Below, piece by piece: positions 15,256 through 60,138 of a stretch of 64,000 nucleotides of DNA (position 1 is the stretch's first letter; the number at the start of each line of letters is the position of its first letter). The DNA is taken from positions 736,001 to 800,000 of the forward strand of contig CM000434.1 in NCBI GenBank assembly GCA_000165345.1, read 5' to 3'. A model generated the notes under the pieces. It saw only the letters and a program-made list of their open reading frames with translations, was not told the DNA's origin and did not search any database. The position numbers were made by a program, and so were the translations under genes.

Positions 15256-16630
15256 TCTTAGTTTGTTATTGTAACTATTGCCACTAACTTATGCTTTAAG
15301 CTTTATTTAATAATTTTCTAAGCTAATACCTAATAAGAACTTTCCAATTATTATTTAGTCTCCAAATACAGCTTTCGTTATTTATCTAACTTTCTTTTTT
15401 TTTTATTTCCGAGAAAACTCCTTAAAGGCATACTTAACCTCTAATTTATATTATAAGATTCCTACGAATATTGGCGCCAAAAGTCAAATTATACAAATAT
15501 TGGTTGAGTTGAATAATGCATTAAGAATAAAATAAATTCAAAATAAAAAGAAACATATTATAAAAATATAATTATAGTTAGAAAAATGGTTAGCCTTACA
15601 AGTAATTCTATTATTAAAAATAACAATGTAAGTTGAACTGTACTAAGGACTTAAGATGCTTTAACTTCAAGTTAGCTAGTAATAGCAAGAGAAAAGTCAA
15701 GAAGATTATCAGAATTCCTTTTATTTCACTAAAAAGATTTTCAAACCTAACATGTAATTTTAATTCATCACTTAAACCAACTTGACATCAATCCCTCAAA
15801 CTTGAAATCTGTTCTGTCCTCAATATCATTTCAAAATAAGCATTAAAATAAAATAGAGAATTCCAATTTAGTATCCTCAATAAGCCTTATAGATGCTAAA
15901 AATAGTTTAAATTAATTAAGTTAACTCAAAATATTTATTTCTTTAATAGTTTTAATGGTTCATCAGAAATTTGAGCGAAGATTTCTGTTTTCAACTGCTA
16001 TTTAACAGATTCAATAGGGGAATCTTTGTTTCATCATATTAAACCATTAATGACATTATAAACTTACATTTTAATTTAAACCTTGAAAAAAAATAAGAGA
16101 ATATTTACTTCTGATTCATTTTGTCCCAAATAAATTTTTAGTACTCCGTGAAATACCAATTAAGACAAAAATCCAGAATGGCGCCAATTGTCATGGATGT
16201 GGCGCCAGAACATGCAATTTGAAGAAACCATTCAGAGAATGTTTTGAAGCAACATCAAGAATGGCAATATAGAAAAGAAGCAAGAAATCCGTATGGGAAA
16301 TACAAGTCATACACCGAAAGAAAATAGTAAAAACACGGTTTAAGTCATGAAATCTTTAATGACATTGCAATTGTATGCTATCTAAAAAAATATATATGTA
16401 GGTAACAAGTTCAAAGTAATGTTGCAAAGCTAATAATATTCAAACTCAAAATTGAAAATAGATACTGGAAAACTTTATATCAATTTAGCAATTTATAATA
16501 TGTAACCATGTGTGTTCCTAATGGATAGTAGCATTGTAAGTATCAACACTTGCAATAATAATCTAAACGTTATTCCATATAAATAAAAACCAAAAGTGTC
16601 AATTCTACATAAGAGCTACAAGTGCAATAT

Positions 16631-21905: not shown

Positions 21906-22583
21906 ATGTCAGATGTTAGTGAAAATACGCTCAAGATTATTAAAGCAGCAAATAGGTCTCTTCAGCTTCATCAAGATAGGCTAGGAAAGACAAAAATAGC
22001 AGAGAATAAGGAGAACTCTCAATTTAAGAGCCAAAATAAAATAGAACTTGGGGATGAAAAGTCTTCAAGATTAAAGACTAAGCGAGTAAATTCAAAAAAA
22101 GAGATAGAAATAGTAACAAAGAAGCAACATGACGAGGAATCAATAGAAAAAACTCAAGAAAAAGTCAGAGAACTTGAAGACCAGATCTCTAAAATACTGG
22201 AATATTCATCAGTACTTGAAGAAACTTTAAAAAAAAATATTGACCAAACAAACAAAATTAATAAGAACCATTGCTGTTGCAATCAGCAGACCCACAATAA
22301 GAAACTTGACAAATTAATGATTGCTGATATAGTAAAAGATGTTGTTTACTCACTAAATAGAAAGAAAATACAACCCCAAGTCAAACCCTACATTATTCAC
22401 ACTAAAACACAATCAAAAATTAATTCTAATCTATCAATTTACACATCAACCGTGGAATATCTTTCAAACTTCATCCTAGAACTATGTATTGATGATATTC
22501 TAACCTCTTTAGACACTTCCATACACAATTTTTCTGTCAAACTTGTAAAAGGAAAGTATTTTGAAACTGAGACCATCCCATAA
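21906..22583 (+). CDS. hypothetical K/E/Q-rich protein
   Basis: 225-aa ORF, ATG verified. No recognisable domain. An E2F-like composite lies upstream (21758-21772). Confidence 0.45.
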   Translation: MSDVSENTLKIIKAANRSLQLHQDRLGKTKIAENKENSQFKSQNKIELGDEKSSRLKTKRVNSKKEIEIVTKKQHDEESIEKTQEKVRELEDQISKILEYSSVLEETLKKNIDQTNKINKNHCCCNQQTHNKKLDKLMIADIVKDVVYSLNRKKIQPQVKPYIIHTKTQSKINSNLSIYTSTVEYLSNFILELCIDDILTSLDTSIHNFSVKLVKGKYFETETIP

Positions 22584-22755
22584 ATACTTGGCGCCATGTG
22601 GCGGGAACTCTGGGAAATTAAGAGTAATTGGATAAGCTTGAGTAAATAAATTAAAGCAAGATAGGAAAAAAATAATAAGGAATTCAAAATTTAAAGAATT
22701 GGCCATAAGAGAAAGATTTTTAGGAGTATTTCTTAAGTAAGAGTATAAAAAGAAG

Positions 22756-23075
22756 ATGTTAAGCAAGGTACTTAGTTCTATAGTTTTTTGTCTGGTTAGT
22801 TTGTTTTGTTTTGCAAACGTAAGTTTAATAATTACACAACAAAAGTTGTGAAAAGAATAGGAATAAAATTTAACTTTAACCTATTTTGTTTTGTTTTTTA
22901 GGCTCAATCTGTACCAAGAGATGCAACAAGTATACAAATTACACTCTGGTTGAGTGTTTCTCTGGTTGCAACTTTGATAGTCTTTTTATATTTTATGATT
23001 AAGACTGCTCCAAATACTGGAAGAGACCCCTTGTTGAATATGAGAATTAAATCTGAGGCAGATAAATCAAAGTAA
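22756..23075 (+). CDS. small (78 aa) secretory/TM protein, 2 exons; not in the ORF track
   Basis: Exon 1 is 22756..22818 (MLSKVLSSIVFCLVSLFCFAN), a signal-peptide-like hydrophobic stretch, followed by a GTAAGT donor at 22819. The intron has a poly-T tract with acceptor AG at 22900-22901. Exon 2 is 22902..23075 (AQSVPRDATSIQITLWLSVSLVATLIVFLYFMIKTAPNTGRDPLLNMRIKSEADKSK*), in phase 0. E2F-like boxes lie ~150 bp upstream (22587-22607). Confidence 0.55.
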
Positions 23076-23592
23076 GCCATCTATTAGATAGCTTAATTGA
23101 AATAGTTATTATTTGTGAGCAAGCAATAGCATCCATAGAATTTTAAGCTCCGCATTATATTCAGAATGTCTTTCTTTTATATCTATCTCTTTATATAATT
23201 ATGAAATATCTTCCATAATTGTCCCACATATTATTAATTTTGTATTACTACTTAAATCTACCATTCTTCCCTTTGCTTTTTTTTTCCCCTTTTTCATCCA
23301 TATTTTCTTCTATTATAGGTACCTTATTATGTTTTGGCGCCAAAATAATACATGATCCTGTGAGTAGGAAAAGTGGTTGAAAAGGAAAAATTGAAGAGAA
23401 TTTGTGATTAGGGAAATAAAGTAGCTTCTTATTTTTTTCTTGTAATAATTTTGAGGTTTGAATAATGAAATAGATTTCCCAGATCTTGGATTTTTTTTAT
23501 TATTACAGAAATAAACTTGCAAGTAATTTTGGAAATGAGATTTCAAGTTCTGGGTTGAATAAGTGATTGAAAAGACAAAAAAGAAAATTAAA

Positions 23593-26223
23593 ATGAGCTC
23601 TGAAAGAAAACACTGCATTCATGTAATAGCAGCCAAGAAGTTTCTACAAAGCTTCTTAAAGCTCCCTGAGGAAGCTCTAAGAGAGGACTTTGATATATGT
23701 TATAACAATCAATGCAATTCCCAAAATAAGTCTAAAATTGAATACTTTGGGATCCCAAGAAAAGAATGTCAAATACCACACGAATTTGTTGGTATTGGAC
23801 TTAATACTGGAGAAAATGTCCCTTTTGAAATGAAAAAAGTTACTAAAATGAAGAATCCAACAAATAGTAATCAGATTGATAAGTTATTGGGAGATATTGG
23901 TGAGCCTACATATAGAGAAATTGCAGTTCGTCAGGAAGACTCTAGAAAGGCAATTAGAGAGATTTTTACTTTGTCCCATGAGATAGAAAAGGATTTAAGA
24001 GATAATATTACTCATAGATCTCGATCAATAGCTTTTTGTCCAGAATCTGAGTTCAATAACGAAAATGAGTACAATCTAAATTCTGTTGAAGTATCTAATA
24101 ATAGTAATAGATCCAAAATACTCAATTGGTTTAGAGATCAAAAACCAATTTGGGATGAAGAAGACTATTTTGTAAAGAGTGAATTGTTTAGGTCAACCCC
24201 AGACTGGAAAAGACTTGAGACTTATAAAGACCTAATTAGTTGTGAATGGGGATCTGCAAAGGTTTTGATGATTATTCAATTCTGGCAGACTTCTTTAACA
24301 TTTACAGACAGGCTAGTTAATAATAGAGATTCTTCTATTATAGAGTATGTTGGAGGAAATGAAGAGAGTTGTTTACCTTTGAGAATACTAATCAAGTTTG
24401 AAAGAAAAACATTAAAAGATAAAGATAGAGAGAAACCAATTAATGAAACAAAGACTTTACATTTTGAAGAAAAGTTGGAGATGAGACAAATGAAAGATAC
24501 TCAAATTAGTCATGAGACAAGTAAAATAAGAAGAAAGGATCCAAATGAATATAGCTCAAGCTTAGAATCATTATCAGAGGATGAGATCTTAACTAATAAA
24601 GATCATGAGACACAAACCAATCAAATTAATATAAAGTATTTGGAGATGGTCAAGTACATTCAAGGAAAAGACAAATCCAAGGAATTTAAGTTTCTCGAAA
24701 ATAGATTCAAAGATTCAGATAAATCACATTGCTATTTATATATTGAAAATAAAAAAGATTTCTTCCTTAAGCTTCAAACTAAATATGATAAGGAAATTAT
24801 CCATATGATTAAAACATGTATTAAAGGTAGAAAGTATGATAATGAAAATAAGCTTTGGTTGCTTCCAATTGATACAATTTATGAATCAGTTCGTATAGTT
24901 GAATTTCTTGGAGGAACTATTGACAAGAATGTTTTGGCTCTATTAGTAAACGGAAACAAAACAGATTTGGATCATGAACTAATGTTTTCTACAGATGAAC
25001 TGGATAACTGGAAAAATCTGTTACCAAAATCTTCTCAAGGAACATGGTATAGGTTAAGTATTAAATTTCATTTGAACATTTTAAATGAAATATATAGAGG
25101 AAATACTGAAAGGTTCAAAGATCATACATTTAAGCTCACATTTTTTAAAGAGGGAATTGATGAACATTACCATAGTGAGTTAATTAAGACTCTTAGAAAT
25201 AACAAGATTTCAATGAAGTGGGACACAAATGAAAAGAGTTGGAAAATACCGATAGATCAATTCACAAAAGTAATTAGTACATGTAGAGGAAGTCTAGAGT
25301 TTTACTTTTCTAGCATGTTTGACCATATAGTATTTAAACAAGCACAAGAAATGATTAAGAATCCAAACTTTCAAAATAAGAGAAAAGAATATGGATTAAA
25401 TAATTCAATTAAGAAGAAGAGACTGACAGCATCAGAATCAGATGAAGAAGAAACAATAAGAAGTAGCCAAAGGATTAGATATGATGAAGATGATGATGAA
25501 GAAAACATTGATTTAGGAAGAAACGAACAAGCTTTAATTCTAAGCTGTCTTGGGAAAGATGACCATGATAATAGAAGACTTGAGGTAAAAATATCAAATA
25601 TGATTAGAAATATGAAGACTCCTAAACATATTGATAAGATTGAATTTGTGCTTTGGCCTAGGCATTACAAAGACTGGGAATCTATTTCATTTCTAGTATT
25701 ATCAAAAGATTTCATAATGAACGTTTACCATCCAAAACTACTTTTATCTATTGTAAGCAATGTAATGATTGTCTCAGAAGGAATGATTGATTATTTAACA
25801 AAGAAGAATACTTGGCCTGATAATTCATTTGAAACCAAATTCGAACTTGTCAAAGGACTTCCTTCTTTAGAATCTAGACTCTACATTAGCGAAGGGATAT
25901 TTTGTAAAACAAAACTATTTATTGTTGGACCACCAGGAAATAATCATTTCAAATTATGTACTCGTTTAGCTACCTTAGGAAATGCTTCGTTTGTACAAGA
26001 TCCATTATTAGCGGACTATATAATAATTTGTGATGAATCAGACCCAAATGCTTTGAAAATTAAGAAATCAGTACCTAAAAAGCAAGCAAGTAAAGTACAA
26101 AACACACATGGAGAGACTCATTCAATTCAGGTGACTCCAAAATGGGTATATGATGTAGTTTTAGATTTTACCATTATTAAGCCAACTTCCAAACGAAATC
26201 ATAAAGCCTGGATGATTGAGTAA
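23593..26223 (+). CDS. hypothetical 876-aa protein; possible C-terminal BRCT-like fold
   Basis: The ORF track starts at a GTG (23563); the first ATG is 23593 (MSSERKH…). No strong family match. The C-terminal segment 'KLFIVGPPGNNHFKLCTRLATLGNASFVQDPLLADYIIICDE' loosely resembles a BRCT repeat. Acidic/Ser patches elsewhere. Confidence 0.4.
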   Translation: MSSERKHCIHVIAAKKFLQSFLKLPEEALREDFDICYNNQCNSQNKSKIEYFGIPRKECQIPHEFVGIGLNTGENVPFEMKKVTKMKNPTNSNQIDKLLGDIGEPTYREIAVRQEDSRKAIREIFTLSHEIEKDLRDNITHRSRSIAFCPESEFNNENEYNLNSVEVSNNSNRSKILNWFRDQKPIWDEEDYFVKSELFRSTPDWKRLETYKDLISCEWGSAKVLMIIQFWQTSLTFTDRLVNNRDSSIIEYVGGNEESCLPLRILIKFERKTLKDKDREKPINETKTLHFEEKLEMRQMKDTQISHETSKIRRKDPNEYSSSLESLSEDEILTNKDHETQTNQINIKYLEMVKYIQGKDKSKEFKFLENRFKDSDKSHCYLYIENKKDFFLKLQTKYDKEIIHMIKTCIKGRKYDNENKLWLLPIDTIYESVRIVEFLGGTIDKNVLALLVNGNKTDLDHELMFSTDELDNWKNLLPKSSQGTWYRLSIKFHLNILNEIYRGNTERFKDHTFKLTFFKEGIDEHYHSELIKTLRNNKISMKWDTNEKSWKIPIDQFTKVISTCRGSLEFYFSSMFDHIVFKQAQEMIKNPNFQNKRKEYGLNNSIKKKRLTASESDEEETIRSSQRIRYDEDDDEENIDLGRNEQALILSCLGKDDHDNRRLEVKISNMIRNMKTPKHIDKIEFVLWPRHYKDWESISFLVLSKDFIMNVYHPKLLLSIVSNVMIVSEGMIDYLTKKNTWPDNSFETKFELVKGLPSLESRLYISEGIFCKTKLFIVGPPGNNHFKLCTRLATLGNASFVQDPLLADYIIICDESDPNALKIKKSVPKKQASKVQNTHGETHSIQVTPKWVYDVVLDFTIIKPTSKRNHKAWMIE

Positions 26224-44942: not shown

Positions 44943-45856
44943 CCTCTTAATTTAAAAAGAAATTAGACCTGTGAAATCTTCTATAACAGAAATAGCAAGT
45001 TAGTATTTTTTTTTTTTCTGAGTGGAAAAAAAAATCAATTAACTTGTTTCTAAATTAATCCAAACTTTCTCCTTCAAACAAAGTTTCTGTTTTTCTTATT
45101 TATATTTAATAGAAAACAGAAAATAATTAACCGGTCTTTTTTTCAACCTTATATAATACTTTACTTATATTAAGTTAATATAATAATTAATTAATATTTA
45201 ATTTGAGACAAAACATTTAGTAGACTATTTATTTCAATGAGACAGTATTAATAAATTATTTTTTTTAATTAAAAAAATTAATTATTTGTTTATATATTAA
45301 AACTTTTCTCTATTTATTAATTCCTTTCATTAAATTGTCTCTATTATTACTATTAATACCGGTTCGGTACCCCAATTATGGCGCCACAATGTTCCCGCCA
45401 CATCGTGTGCTACATTATTTAAGAAGAAAATAATGGAAAAAAAAGGAGAAAAAAGGAAATGGAAAGAGAATAACAGAGCAAAATCAGAAATAATTATGTT
45501 TATATTAGGAGATGATTAATTTGATTTCTAGAATGGAAATAATTTGTTGTTTGTGCTTTGTATCGAATATAAGAGGGGAGAGGTGCATTGCATGCATTTT
45601 GAGATCTTGAAAAATAATTTATTTGAACAAATTATTTTTCATTATTGTTTTTTTTCTTTTCTTTCTCTTTTATTGTAGAATTTGGAAAAAAAGTAATTAG
45701 TAAGTTCATATATCTTTTAAAATATAGTATTTTTGGGATTATCTGTACTATTCTTTTAAAATAAGGAAAGAATATATTGTAGCAGGAGTAATCCTGGAAT
45801 GGTTTGTATTATTTCTATTGAGATGTTTGGGATTAAGTTTGGAGGAAATAAAAGTA

Positions 45857-59725: not shown

Positions 59726-60138
59726 ATCAATACTTAGAGTATTTTTGGATATTATTTTCCGCACAATTTGAAGCCTCCATTTTTCCTTTAAGGAAAATAT
59801 TAACAAATTGATAAAGGTACCGAATTTCAAGATCACTTGGCGCCAAGTTGGCGCCGAGAAACACTACGAGTTAATTGAGGATGTATTAAGAAAAAAAAAA
59901 GTCAGAGATAAGAGGAAGTAATTGTTATTATTATTTAATATTGCATTTATTGGATTAAAATAATTGAAATAAAGGTATCTATTATATAAATTGGAATCTA
60001 ATTAACAAAAATAAGGTATTAAATAGTGAAGGAATACCTAGTCAATATTAAGTAGACAAGGGGGGAAGGATTTGAAATAATACATAAGCTGATTTCATAA
60101 GGTAAATAGTGAATAGAATAGAAGAACTTTAGAGATAT

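What the first reader, a model, noticed from the sequence alone, without database searches (positions are those of the whole stretch)
22756..23075. Unlisted two-exon gene encoding a 78-aa signal-peptide + single-TM protein
The exons are ATG 22756..22818 (MLSKVLSSIVFCLVSLFCFAN) and 22902..23075 (AQSVPRDATSIQITLWLSVSLVATLIVFLYFMIKTAPNTGRDPLLNMRIKSEADKSK*), joined by a GTAAGT donor, a poly-T tract and an AG acceptor in phase 0. It is preceded by an E2F-like pair (cttggcgccatgtggcgggaa, 22587-22607). The architecture is a cleavable signal, a short lumenal stretch, one TM helix and a basic cytosolic tail. This resembles small accessory subunits of ER and secretory complexes such as OST, SPC, translocon or V-ATPase assembly factors. 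It is too short to appear in the ORF track.
Basis: partly seen in the sequence, partly recalled or inferred. Interest (0 to 1): 0.55.

Follow-up and report, generated by a model that had tools for sequence, protein, structure and literature searches.

The report
Small V-ATPase accessory-like membrane protein gene
This is a real two-exon Cryptosporidium parvum gene, already in public annotations, for a 78-residue protein with a signal peptide and one membrane helix; it is most likely the parasite's stripped-down version of ATP6AP2, a small subunit inside the rotor ring of the vacuolar proton pump.

Summary
The exons 22756-22818 and 22902-23075 are joined by an 83-nt phase-0 GTAAGT...AG intron and encode the stated 78-aa protein.

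The gene is not unlisted. The identical protein is deposited for C. parvum (QOY41211.1, CPHLJ_6g3255). Orthologues of 76-78 aa are annotated in six other Cryptosporidium species, in conserved synteny and with the intron at the same codon.

Exon 2 is under strong purifying selection (17 synonymous against 1 non-synonymous change between parvum and ubiquitum). Without splicing, the frame breaks in three of four species.

All seven orthologues match Pfam PF23529, "Apicomplexa microprotein", which has no assigned function. PF23529 and the ATP6AP2 (Renin_r) transmembrane family are each other's consistent next-best match. Profile-profile alignment lines up LW...Y...P...G-x-D-x-L-L.

A published cross-linked peptide places the same motif at the same residue position in P. 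falciparum PF3D7_0613100. That protein is a proposed ATP6AP2 orthologue, co-migrates with V0 and cross-links to V0 subunit d.

Best reading (about 0.6): a minimal ATP6AP2/M8.9-like subunit of the V-ATPase V0 sector. Its list of functions was too broad, although it did include V-ATPase assembly.

This is a modest functional annotation, not a new gene.

The parts
22589..22606 (+). Pair of E2F-like boxes, TGGCGCCA and TGGCGGGA, 10 bp apart, about 150-166 nt upstream of the ATG. Likely promoter element.
   Evidence: A similar pair with 10-bp spacing lies upstream of the orthologue in C. canis (-141/-131) and C. ubiquitum (-154/-144). It is absent within 260 nt in C. andersoni. The promoter function is inferred.
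22756..22818 (+). Exon 1, codons 1-21 (MLSKVLSSIVFCLVSLFCFAN). This is the signal peptide apart from its last residue.
   Evidence: This region is poorly conserved between species, except for hydrophobicity and small residues at -3/-1.
22819..22901 (+). Intron of 83 nt, phase 0, with a GTAAGT donor, a T-rich tract and a TAG acceptor; 20% G+C.
   Evidence: Introns at the same position measure 80, 71 and 66 nt in C. ubiquitum, canis and andersoni. Reading through without splicing meets a TGA after 10 codons. No RNA-seq was available here.
22902..23075 (+). Exon 2, codons 22-78 plus the stop codon. It encodes the mature protein (Q23-K78; 56 aa, 6.3 kDa, pI 9.8).
   Evidence: Nucleotide identity to C. 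ubiquitum is 90%, against 69% for the intron.
22938..23000 (+). Transmembrane helix, about residues 34-54 (ITLWLSVSLVATLIVFLYFMI). L36-W37 and Y51 align with invariant L311-W312 and Y326 of human ATP6AP2.
   Evidence: Hydropathy, AlphaFold helix 29-56 and hhalign alignment.
23019..23045 (+). Cytosolic tail motif G61-R-D-P-L-L-N-M-R69. It corresponds to G-Y-D-S-I-I-Y-R-M of ATP6AP2 and T-K-D-S-L-L-Y-S-K of PF3D7_0613100. The proposed role, contact with V0 subunit d, is inferred.
   Evidence: Pfam probing with native against shuffled tails and the cross-linked peptide in the supplement of PMC13200099.

Best explanation
The locus is a genuine, spliced protein-coding gene of Cryptosporidium parvum chromosome 6, with a locus tag of the 6g3255 type.

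Its product enters the ER through a cleavable signal peptide, predicted to be cut after A22. That leaves a 56-residue type I membrane protein with about 13 lumenal residues, one TM helix and a 24-residue basic cytosolic tail.

It belongs to the apicomplexan microprotein family Pfam PF23529. I infer that this family is the apicomplexan form of ATP6AP2 (the (pro)renin receptor, plant VHA-AP2), reduced to the part that in animals is the V-ATPase-associated 'M8.9' fragment.

Proposed mechanism: the TM helix is trapped inside the proteolipid c-ring of the V-ATPase V0 sector during assembly in the ER. The tail motif G-R-D-P-L-L then contacts subunit d on the cytosolic face. This helps to seat d on the ring, and the protein rotates with the rotor.

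Shown here: the gene, its splicing logic, its conservation, its topology features and its sequence-profile links. Inferred: signal cleavage, orthology to PF3D7_0613100 and any association with the V-ATPase in Cryptosporidium.
For: Gene reality:
- The product is an exact match to deposited proteins. Orthologues of 76-78 aa exist in seven species.
- The order NOP2 - Gpi16 - hypothetical - microprotein - large ORF - Rpn11 is conserved.
- The intron is at the same position in four species, and three of the four intron lengths shift the frame.
- Exon 2 synonymous/non-synonymous counts are 17/1 (parvum against ubiquitum) and 33/4 (parvum against canis). dN/dS is 0.17 against andersoni.

Family:
- PF23529 is the top Pfam hit for 7 of 7 orthologues, with best E 1.3e-5. 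The database's precomputed domains list PF23529.2 for all of them.

Link to ATP6AP2:
- Renin_r is a weak hit in 6 of 7 Cryptosporidium proteins.
- Conversely, 15 of 15 animal-type ATP6AP2 C-terminal fragments hit PF23529 (best E 0.0055). It is the only other family that all of them match.
- Both tryptophans map to PF23529 profile position 33 and both aspartates to about position 57.
- hhalign of the Cryptosporidium profile against the ATP6AP2 C-terminal profile gives P = 4.4e-4. Shuffling columns within each segment gives a mean score of 12.9 (sd 3.0), and 2 of 300 shuffles reach the observed 21.7.
- Deleting the two-residue insertion N59-T60 in silico raises Renin_r from 13.9 to 21.0 bits (E 3.3e-4, second-best family). 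Seven tail shuffles give 10.9-14.2 bits.

Plasmodium:
- PMC10434966 reports that PF3D7_0613100 co-migrates with V0 and is an ATP6AP2 orthologue by profile search.
- The supplement of PMC13200099 lists its peptide ISHT[K63]DSLLYSK cross-linked to K99 of PF3D7_1464700, which is V0 subunit d. K63-D64-S-L-L-Y lies at almost the same residue number as R62-D63-P-L-L-N here.
- Grafting that peptide onto the Cryptosporidium head raises PF23529 to 29.6 bits, above its cut-off of 27, and Renin_r to 21.5 bits. Shuffled versions of the peptide give Renin_r 10.9 bits at most.

Plants:
- AP2 (At3g24160) sits inside the c-ring and touches subunit d1 in the Arabidopsis cryo-EM structure.
Against: - No single sequence link to ATP6AP2 reaches a curated threshold. 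Native Renin_r scores 13.9 bits against a cut-off of 27.8. Native PF23529.1 scores 23.1 bits against 27.
- hhalign probability is only 23-34%.
- Single-TM proteins give many weak, non-specific matches. TMEM9, MRAP and Frag1 hits appear too, and they persist when the tail is shuffled.
- One of eight shuffles of the Plasmodium peptide scored 28.7 bits on PF23529, so that test is weak.
- I could not obtain the PF3D7_0613100 sequence or the PF23529 seed, so orthology rests on a 12-residue peptide and on profile behaviour (one search failed).
- The ATP6AP2 comparison alignment is almost all vertebrate.
- The profile searches found no relatives outside Cryptosporidium and no solved structure.
- The C-terminus ...DKSK lacks the KxRxx-type retrieval signal of ATP6AP2.
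- There are no expression, localisation or interaction data for Cryptosporidium.
Confidence: 0.6

Rival explanations
1. A Cryptosporidium/apicomplexan-specific type I membrane microprotein with some other role, such as a secretory-pathway or organelle membrane component. On this view the resemblance to ATP6AP2 is a by-product of single-TM composition plus a short chance motif.
For: All links to Renin_r are below threshold. Pfam gives PF23529 no function. Other single-TM families also appear as weak hits. No homologue outside the genus was retrieved directly.
Against: The next-best relation between PF23529 and Renin_r is reciprocal and holds in nearly every member tested (6 of 7 one way, 15 of 15 the other). 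The tail score depends on residue order. The segment-preserving shuffle control gives 2 of 300. The same motif sits at the same position in the Plasmodium V0-associated protein.
Confidence: 0.28
2. A small accessory subunit of an ER complex such as OST, signal peptidase or the translocon/TRAP, as in the first reader's other suggestions.
For: Only the general architecture: a small protein, a signal peptide or hydrophobic N-terminus, one TM helix and a basic tail.
Against: No Pfam hit, even at E<=10, to OST4, OST5, SPC12, SPC25, Sec61 beta or gamma, or TRAP families, for any of the seven orthologues. The known small subunits of those complexes generally lack a cleavable signal peptide (established knowledge).
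Confidence: 0.04
3. A different small V0 component: an ATP6AP1/Voa1-type c-ring occupant, or a two-helix subunit e/f-like hairpin in which the N-terminal hydrophobic segment is not cleaved.
For: It has two hydrophobic segments. V0 contains several very small membrane subunits. The CompaCt study also lists a 72-aa protein with two predicted TM helices, PF3D7_1112000, as a V0 candidate.
Against: There is no Pfam hit to the ATP-synt_S1/BIG1 or subunit e families. The first hydrophobic segment evolves freely while a small-x-small cleavage motif is kept, which is typical of a signal peptide. The PF23529 match starts only at residue 24. The tail motif matches ATP6AP2 specifically.
Confidence: 0.07
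4. Not a gene: a chance ORF pair with splice-like signals.
For: It is short, and no transcript data were examined here.
Against: The protein is conserved in seven species. Synonymous changes far outnumber non-synonymous ones. The intron position is conserved, and the frame is restored only by splicing.
Confidence: 0.01

Closest known systems
Pfam PF23529 (Microp_apicomplexa_16, 'Apicomplexa microprotein')
   Same: It is the best Pfam hit for all seven Cryptosporidium orthologues, covering residues 24-71 against profile positions 20-65 of 73. The size class and the taxon also fit. The database's precomputed domain assignments give PF23529.2 for them.
   Different: The native score of 23.1 bits is below the curated cut-off of 27 for version 1 of the model. 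Cryptosporidium carries a two-residue insertion (N59-T60) relative to the profile. The family itself has no described function.
ATP6AP2 / (pro)renin receptor / plant VHA-AP2, C-terminal 'M8.9' segment (Pfam PF07850 Renin_r)
   Same: Type I topology. A single TM helix opening with L-W, with a Tyr near its cytosolic end. A Pro follows, then a G-x-D-x-(I/L)-(I/L) tail motif and a short tail helix. The family is a V0 c-ring occupant that contacts subunit d in animals and plants.
   Different: There is no ~270-residue lumenal ectodomain; the signal peptide is joined almost directly to the TM segment. The Renin_r HMM score is below threshold. There is a two-residue insertion before the tail motif. 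The tail has N-M-R in place of Y-R-M, and there is no KxRxx C-terminus. No biochemical data exist for Cryptosporidium.
Plasmodium falciparum PF3D7_0613100 (UniProt C6KSX4)
   Same: It carries K63-D-S-L-L-Y at almost the same residue number as R62-D-P-L-L-N here. It has been proposed as an ATP6AP2 orthologue, co-migrates with V0 and cross-links to V0 subunit d.
   Different: Only a 12-residue peptide of it was available to me. Full-length alignment, membership of PF23529 and orthology are inferred, not shown.

Membership tests
Pfam PF23529 Microp_apicomplexa_16 | Match to the family HMM at or above the curated gathering score (27 bits) | tested here: inconclusive
   The native protein scores 23.1 bits with E 7.7e-5. 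All 7 orthologues match, with best E 1.3e-5. The protein database lists PF23529.2 for all Cryptosporidium orthologues, marked 'weak'. The result is significant by E-value but below the version-1 cut-off.
Pfam PF23529 Microp_apicomplexa_16 | Apicomplexan protein of microprotein size (about 70-80 aa) | tested here: met
   76-78 aa in seven Cryptosporidium species.
ATP6AP2 / Renin_r (PF07850) | Match to the Renin_r HMM at or above the gathering score (27.8 bits) | tested here: not met
   13.9 bits with E 0.055, covering the TM part only. The score rises to 21.0 bits after in-silico removal of N59-T60. hhalign gives P 4.4e-4 and probability 23-34%.
ATP6AP2 / Renin_r (PF07850) | Type I topology: signal peptide, a single TM helix near the C-terminus, and a cytosolic tail of about 20 residues | tested here: met
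   Alignment A1 shows a conserved small-x-small site before Q23 and a drifting hydrophobic N-terminus. Supported by hydropathy and AlphaFold helices 2-22, 29-56 and 64-76. Signal cleavage and orientation are predicted, not measured.
ATP6AP2 / Renin_r (PF07850) | Conserved residues of the TM/tail segment (L-W, Y, P, G-x-D-x-I-I) | tested here: met
   L36, W37, Y51, P58, G61, D63 and L65-L66 align with the human residues L311, W312, Y326, P333, G334, D336 and I338-I339. The order-specific contribution of the tail is shown. The Y-R-M-T part of the motif is not conserved.
ATP6AP2 / Renin_r (PF07850) | Large lumenal ectodomain (the prorenin-binding part, cleaved off by furin or site-1 protease) | tested here: not met
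   Only about 13 lumenal residues remain after the predicted signal cleavage. The protein corresponds to the M8.9 fragment only.
ATP6AP2 / Renin_r (PF07850) | Physical residence in the V0 c-ring and contact with subunit d | not testable with these tools
   Known for animals and plants. For Plasmodium PF3D7_0613100 it is indicated by complexome profiling and a cross-link to subunit d. There is nothing for Cryptosporidium.
Small ER-complex subunits (OST4/OST5, SPC12/SPC25, Sec61 beta/gamma, TRAP) and VMA21 / V0 subunit e | Any detectable match to the corresponding Pfam models | tested here: not met
   None of these families appears among the hits at E<=10 for any of the seven orthologues.

The most novel reading that the evidence does not exclude
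Apicomplexans, including the highly reduced Cryptosporidium, encode ATP6AP2 as a free-standing protein equivalent to the animal M8.9 fragment. A signal-peptide exon is spliced directly onto the TM/tail exon, with the intron sitting where the ectodomain would be. This would mean that the conserved, essential job of the '(pro)renin receptor' family across eukaryotes is to plug the V-ATPase c-ring and anchor subunit d. The ectodomain would then be an add-on, or was lost in these parasites.
Probability: 0.5. Interest if true: 0.45.

Novelty: new member of a known kind. Interest (0 to 1): 0.3.

Why it matters
As a gene it is not new, because current Cryptosporidium annotations already carry it as 'uncharacterized' or 'putative integral membrane protein'.

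What this analysis adds is a testable function: a minimal ATP6AP2-type subunit of the V-ATPase V0 sector. If that is right, it fills a gap in the subunit list of the Cryptosporidium proton pump. It also gives Pfam PF23529 a function. Finally, it supports the view that the membrane stub of the (pro)renin receptor, not its ectodomain, is the ancient and conserved part.

The practical value is modest. It improves annotation and supplies a handle for studying V-ATPase assembly in a parasite with few drug targets.

Tried and rejected
- **PDB sequence searches.** I searched with the single protein and with the Cryptosporidium profile. Only chance TM matches came back.
- **Exhaustive HMM search.** A search of 1.84 billion representative proteins with the Cryptosporidium profile found only the Cryptosporidium cluster.
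- **Attempt to fetch the Plasmodium homologue.** A chimeric query carrying the published peptide found only Cryptosporidium. A first attempt failed because max_evalue is capped at 10.
- **ATP6AP2 profile against the PDB, looking for plant AP2 chains.** Only animal chains were found.
- **AlphaFold plus Foldseek against the PDB.** Uninformative for a helix-only 78-mer.
- **Weak Pfam hits to TMEM9, MRAP, Frag1 and DUF2254.** Rejected as non-specific, because they persist or fluctuate when the tail is shuffled.
- **The bare Plasmodium peptide, padded with Gly/Ser.** It hit neither PF23529 nor Renin_r, being too short.
- **Literature searches.** Searches for cgd6_3255, CPATCC_0014830, C6KSX4 and PBANKA_0111400 found nothing. 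Wang et al. 2020 (PMC7655608) is not held.
- **Opposite-strand ORFs.** The ORFs at 22439-22687 and 22509-22766 have no support and overlap the upstream gene's end and the promoter region. I treated them as mechanical ORFs.

Full report
**What is in the sequence**

The window is Cryptosporidium parvum chromosome 6. The neighbouring ORFs are exact matches to deposited C. parvum proteins: a Nop2p RNA methylase, Gpi16/PIG-T, a hypothetical protein and the proteasome subunit Rpn11.

ATG 22756 to 22818 gives MLSKVLSSIVFCLVSLFCFAN. 22902 to 23075 gives AQSVPRDATSIQITLWLSVSLVATLIVFLYFMIKTAPNTGRDPLLNMRIKSEADKSK plus a stop. Between them lie a GTAAGT donor, a T-rich tract and an AG acceptor. The intron is 83 nt and phase 0.

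The upstream pair TGGCGCCA (22589-22596) and TGGCGGGA (22599-22606) is real. This motif class is strongly enriched in the window, with 33 matches against 0.62 expected.

**Is it a gene, and is it unlisted?**

The spliced 78-aa product is an exact match to deposited C. parvum proteins: QOY41211.1 / CPATCC_0014830, 'hypothetical protein CPHLJ_6g3255', and two more. Orthologues of 78 aa are deposited for C. hominis, C. meleagridis ('putative integral membrane protein') and C. tyzzeri. More distant orthologues exist in C. ubiquitum (86% identity), C. canis (78%) and C. andersoni (58%, 76 aa).

The gene is therefore already annotated. It lacks only the 2003-2004 CAD/EAK accessions that its neighbours have, so it was missed in the first annotation and added later.

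Gene order is conserved in C. andersoni, C. canis and C. ubiquitum. The intron lies at the same codon boundary in all four genomes I read. Its lengths are 83, 80, 71 and 66 nt, with GTAAGT or GTAAAG donors and YAG acceptors.

Without splicing, the reading frame meets stop codons in C. parvum, C. ubiquitum and C. canis. Only the 66-nt C. andersoni intron happens to stay open. The spliced model is the only one that yields a conserved product everywhere.

Exon 2 is 90% identical between C. parvum and C. ubiquitum, against 69% for the intron. Its differences are almost all synonymous:
- 17 synonymous against 1 non-synonymous (parvum against ubiquitum).
- 33 against 4 (parvum against canis).
- dN/dS 0.17 against andersoni.

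I had no RNA-seq, so splicing rests on comparative evidence and on independent annotators reaching the same model.

**Architecture**

Across the seven orthologues the first ~20 residues keep only hydrophobicity. They end in A-N-A, A-K-A or V-K-A immediately before an invariant Q-S. This is the classical -3/-1 pattern of a signal-peptidase site (established knowledge).

From A22 onwards the protein is nearly invariant. The predicted mature product is 56 aa, 6.3 kDa, with pI 9.8.

AlphaFold2 on the family alignment gives three helices: 2-22 (signal), 29-56 (TM) and 64-76 (tail). Mean pLDDT is 74. The tail has six basic and three acidic residues, and the lumenal stub is neutral. Type I orientation follows from the positive-inside rule (inference). 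Exon 1 is essentially the signal peptide and exon 2 the mature protein.

**What family**

The best Pfam match for all seven orthologues is PF23529, Microp_apicomplexa_16, described only as 'Apicomplexa microprotein'. For C. parvum the E-value is 7.7e-5 at 23.1 bits, below the cut-off of 27. The best E among the orthologues is 1.3e-5. The large protein database lists PF23529.2 for all of them.

Most of the score, about 18.7 bits, comes from the lumenal stub plus the TM helix. About 4 bits come from the tail.

**Link to ATP6AP2**

Renin_r (PF07850) is the model of the TM and tail segment of ATP6AP2, the (pro)renin receptor. It is a weak hit in 6 of 7 Cryptosporidium proteins.

I confirmed the human ATP6AP2 C-terminus, which I had first written from memory, as 100% identical to PDB chain 6wlw_V residues 294-350. 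Scanned against Pfam, this segment gives PF23529 as its second-best family (E 0.021). The same holds for 15 of 15 animal-type ATP6AP2 C-terminal fragments (best E 0.0055). No other family is matched by more than 6 of them.

Through the PF23529 profile, the tryptophans (Cp W37, Hs W312) both fall on position 33. The aspartates (Cp D63, Hs D336) both fall on about position 57, given a two-residue insertion in Cryptosporidium.

hhalign of the Cryptosporidium profile against an ATP6AP2 C-terminal profile aligns IQITLWLSVSLVATLIVFLYFMIKTAP with [27 protein letters not shown]. P is 4.4e-4 and probability 23-34%. As a control I shuffled columns separately within the lumenal, TM and tail segments. That gave a mean score of 12.9 (sd 3.0), and 2 of 300 shuffles reached the observed 21.7.

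Removing N59-T60 in silico lets the Renin_r HMM run on into the tail. The score rises from 13.9 to 21.0 bits (E 3.3e-4, second-best family). Seven shuffles of the same tail give 10.9-14.2 bits.

Taken together, the similarity goes beyond TM composition. It includes an order-specific tail motif, G-R-D-P-L-L against G-Y-D-S-I-I. None of these tests alone reaches a curated threshold.

**Link to Plasmodium and to the V-ATPase**

A complexome study (PMC10434966) found that the uncharacterised protein PF3D7_0613100 co-migrates with the V0 sector. The authors identified it by profile search as an ATP6AP2 orthologue, together with Arabidopsis At3g24160.

A cross-linking study of P. falciparum gametocytes (PMC13200099) groups PF3D7_0613100 with PF3D7_1464700, PF3D7_0713700 and PF3D7_0806800. 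Its supplement lists the peptide ISHT[K]DSLLYSK of PF3D7_0613100. The lysine is residue 63, and it is cross-linked to K99 of PF3D7_1464700. PF3D7_1464700 is the orthologue of V0 subunit d.

K63-D64-S-L-L-Y lies at almost the same residue number as R62-D63-P-L-L-N in Cryptosporidium. This implies a protein of the same size and layout.

Grafting this peptide onto the Cryptosporidium head raises PF23529 to 29.6 bits, above its cut-off, and Renin_r to 21.5 bits. Eight shuffles of the peptide give Renin_r 10.9 bits or less. On PF23529 one shuffle reached 28.7 bits, so that half of the test is weak.

In the Arabidopsis V-ATPase cryo-EM preprint, AP2 (At3g24160) lies inside the c-ring and contacts subunit d1. 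AP1/AP2 orthologues are thought to anchor d to the ring during assembly. In mammals ATP6AP2 is part of the rotor.

**Mechanism proposed**

1. After signal cleavage in the ER, the single helix is enclosed by the assembling proteolipid ring of V0.
2. The conserved tail (G61-R69 and the following helix) reaches the cytosolic mouth of the ring and binds subunit d.
3. The protein then turns with the rotor.

In animals the equivalent is the M8.9 fragment, which stays with the pump after the ectodomain is cleaved off (established knowledge). Here the ectodomain is simply absent.

The gene, its conservation and the profile links are shown. Signal cleavage, orthology to PF3D7_0613100 and V-ATPase association in Cryptosporidium are inferred. 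I put this reading at about 0.6.

**Rivals**

- A lineage-specific membrane microprotein with another role, the ATP6AP2 likeness being partly chance: about 0.28.
- Another small V0 component, of the ATP6AP1/Voa1 type or an uncleaved two-helix subunit: about 0.07.
- A small OST, signal-peptidase or translocon subunit: about 0.04. There is no Pfam support at all.
- Not a gene: about 0.01.

**Verdict**

As a gene it is already known. The functional placement makes it a new member of a known kind. Interest is modest.

Noticed in passing
window, whole; e.g. 16179-16207, 22589-22606, 45379-45400, 59838-59856: The E2F-like octamer TGGCGSSR, mostly the palindrome TGGCGCCA, occurs 33 times against 0.62 expected from shuffles. 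It often occurs in pairs 10-21 bp apart in intergenic DNA.
   Followed up: partly
window 23335-23342: Another TGGCGCCA lies between the 3' end of the microprotein gene and the start of the next gene (ORF 23563-26223). It probably belongs to that gene's promoter.
   Followed up: no
window 23563-26223 (+): A large ORF of 876-886 aa is conserved in position in C. andersoni (889 aa), C. ubiquitum (at least 884 aa) and C. canis (807 aa). No Pfam family is on record for it. Here it gives only a sub-threshold hit to the HARP domain (PF07443, E 2.2e-4, residues 394-422).
   Followed up: partly
window 21906-22583 (+): The upstream 225-aa hypothetical protein has no Pfam match. Its length varies between species (224, 244 and 285 aa). 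The E2F-like pair starts only 6 nt after its stop codon.
   Followed up: no
L001 4058-4123 (C. andersoni orthologue): The C. andersoni intron is 66 nt and has no in-frame stop. Intron retention there would give a 98-aa protein with 22 extra residues between the signal peptide and the mature part. In the other three species retention truncates the protein.
   Followed up: partly
window 22866-22884 and the aligned intron positions in L001-L003: A short motif of TTTAAC/TTTCAC type lies roughly 20-30 nt upstream of the acceptor in C. parvum, C. canis and C. andersoni. It is a possible branch-point region, in an otherwise poorly conserved intron.
   Followed up: no
P0042 (C. canis orthologue): UniRef labels the C. 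canis orthologue 'CcmD family protein'. No Pfam hit supports this. It looks like an automatic name triggered by a short single-TM protein.
   Followed up: partly
L002 4061-4131 (C. canis): The C. canis intron is 51% G+C, against 20-21% in the other three species. Its synonymous sites are saturated relative to C. parvum (pS 0.82). This points to a strong compositional shift in that genome.
   Followed up: no
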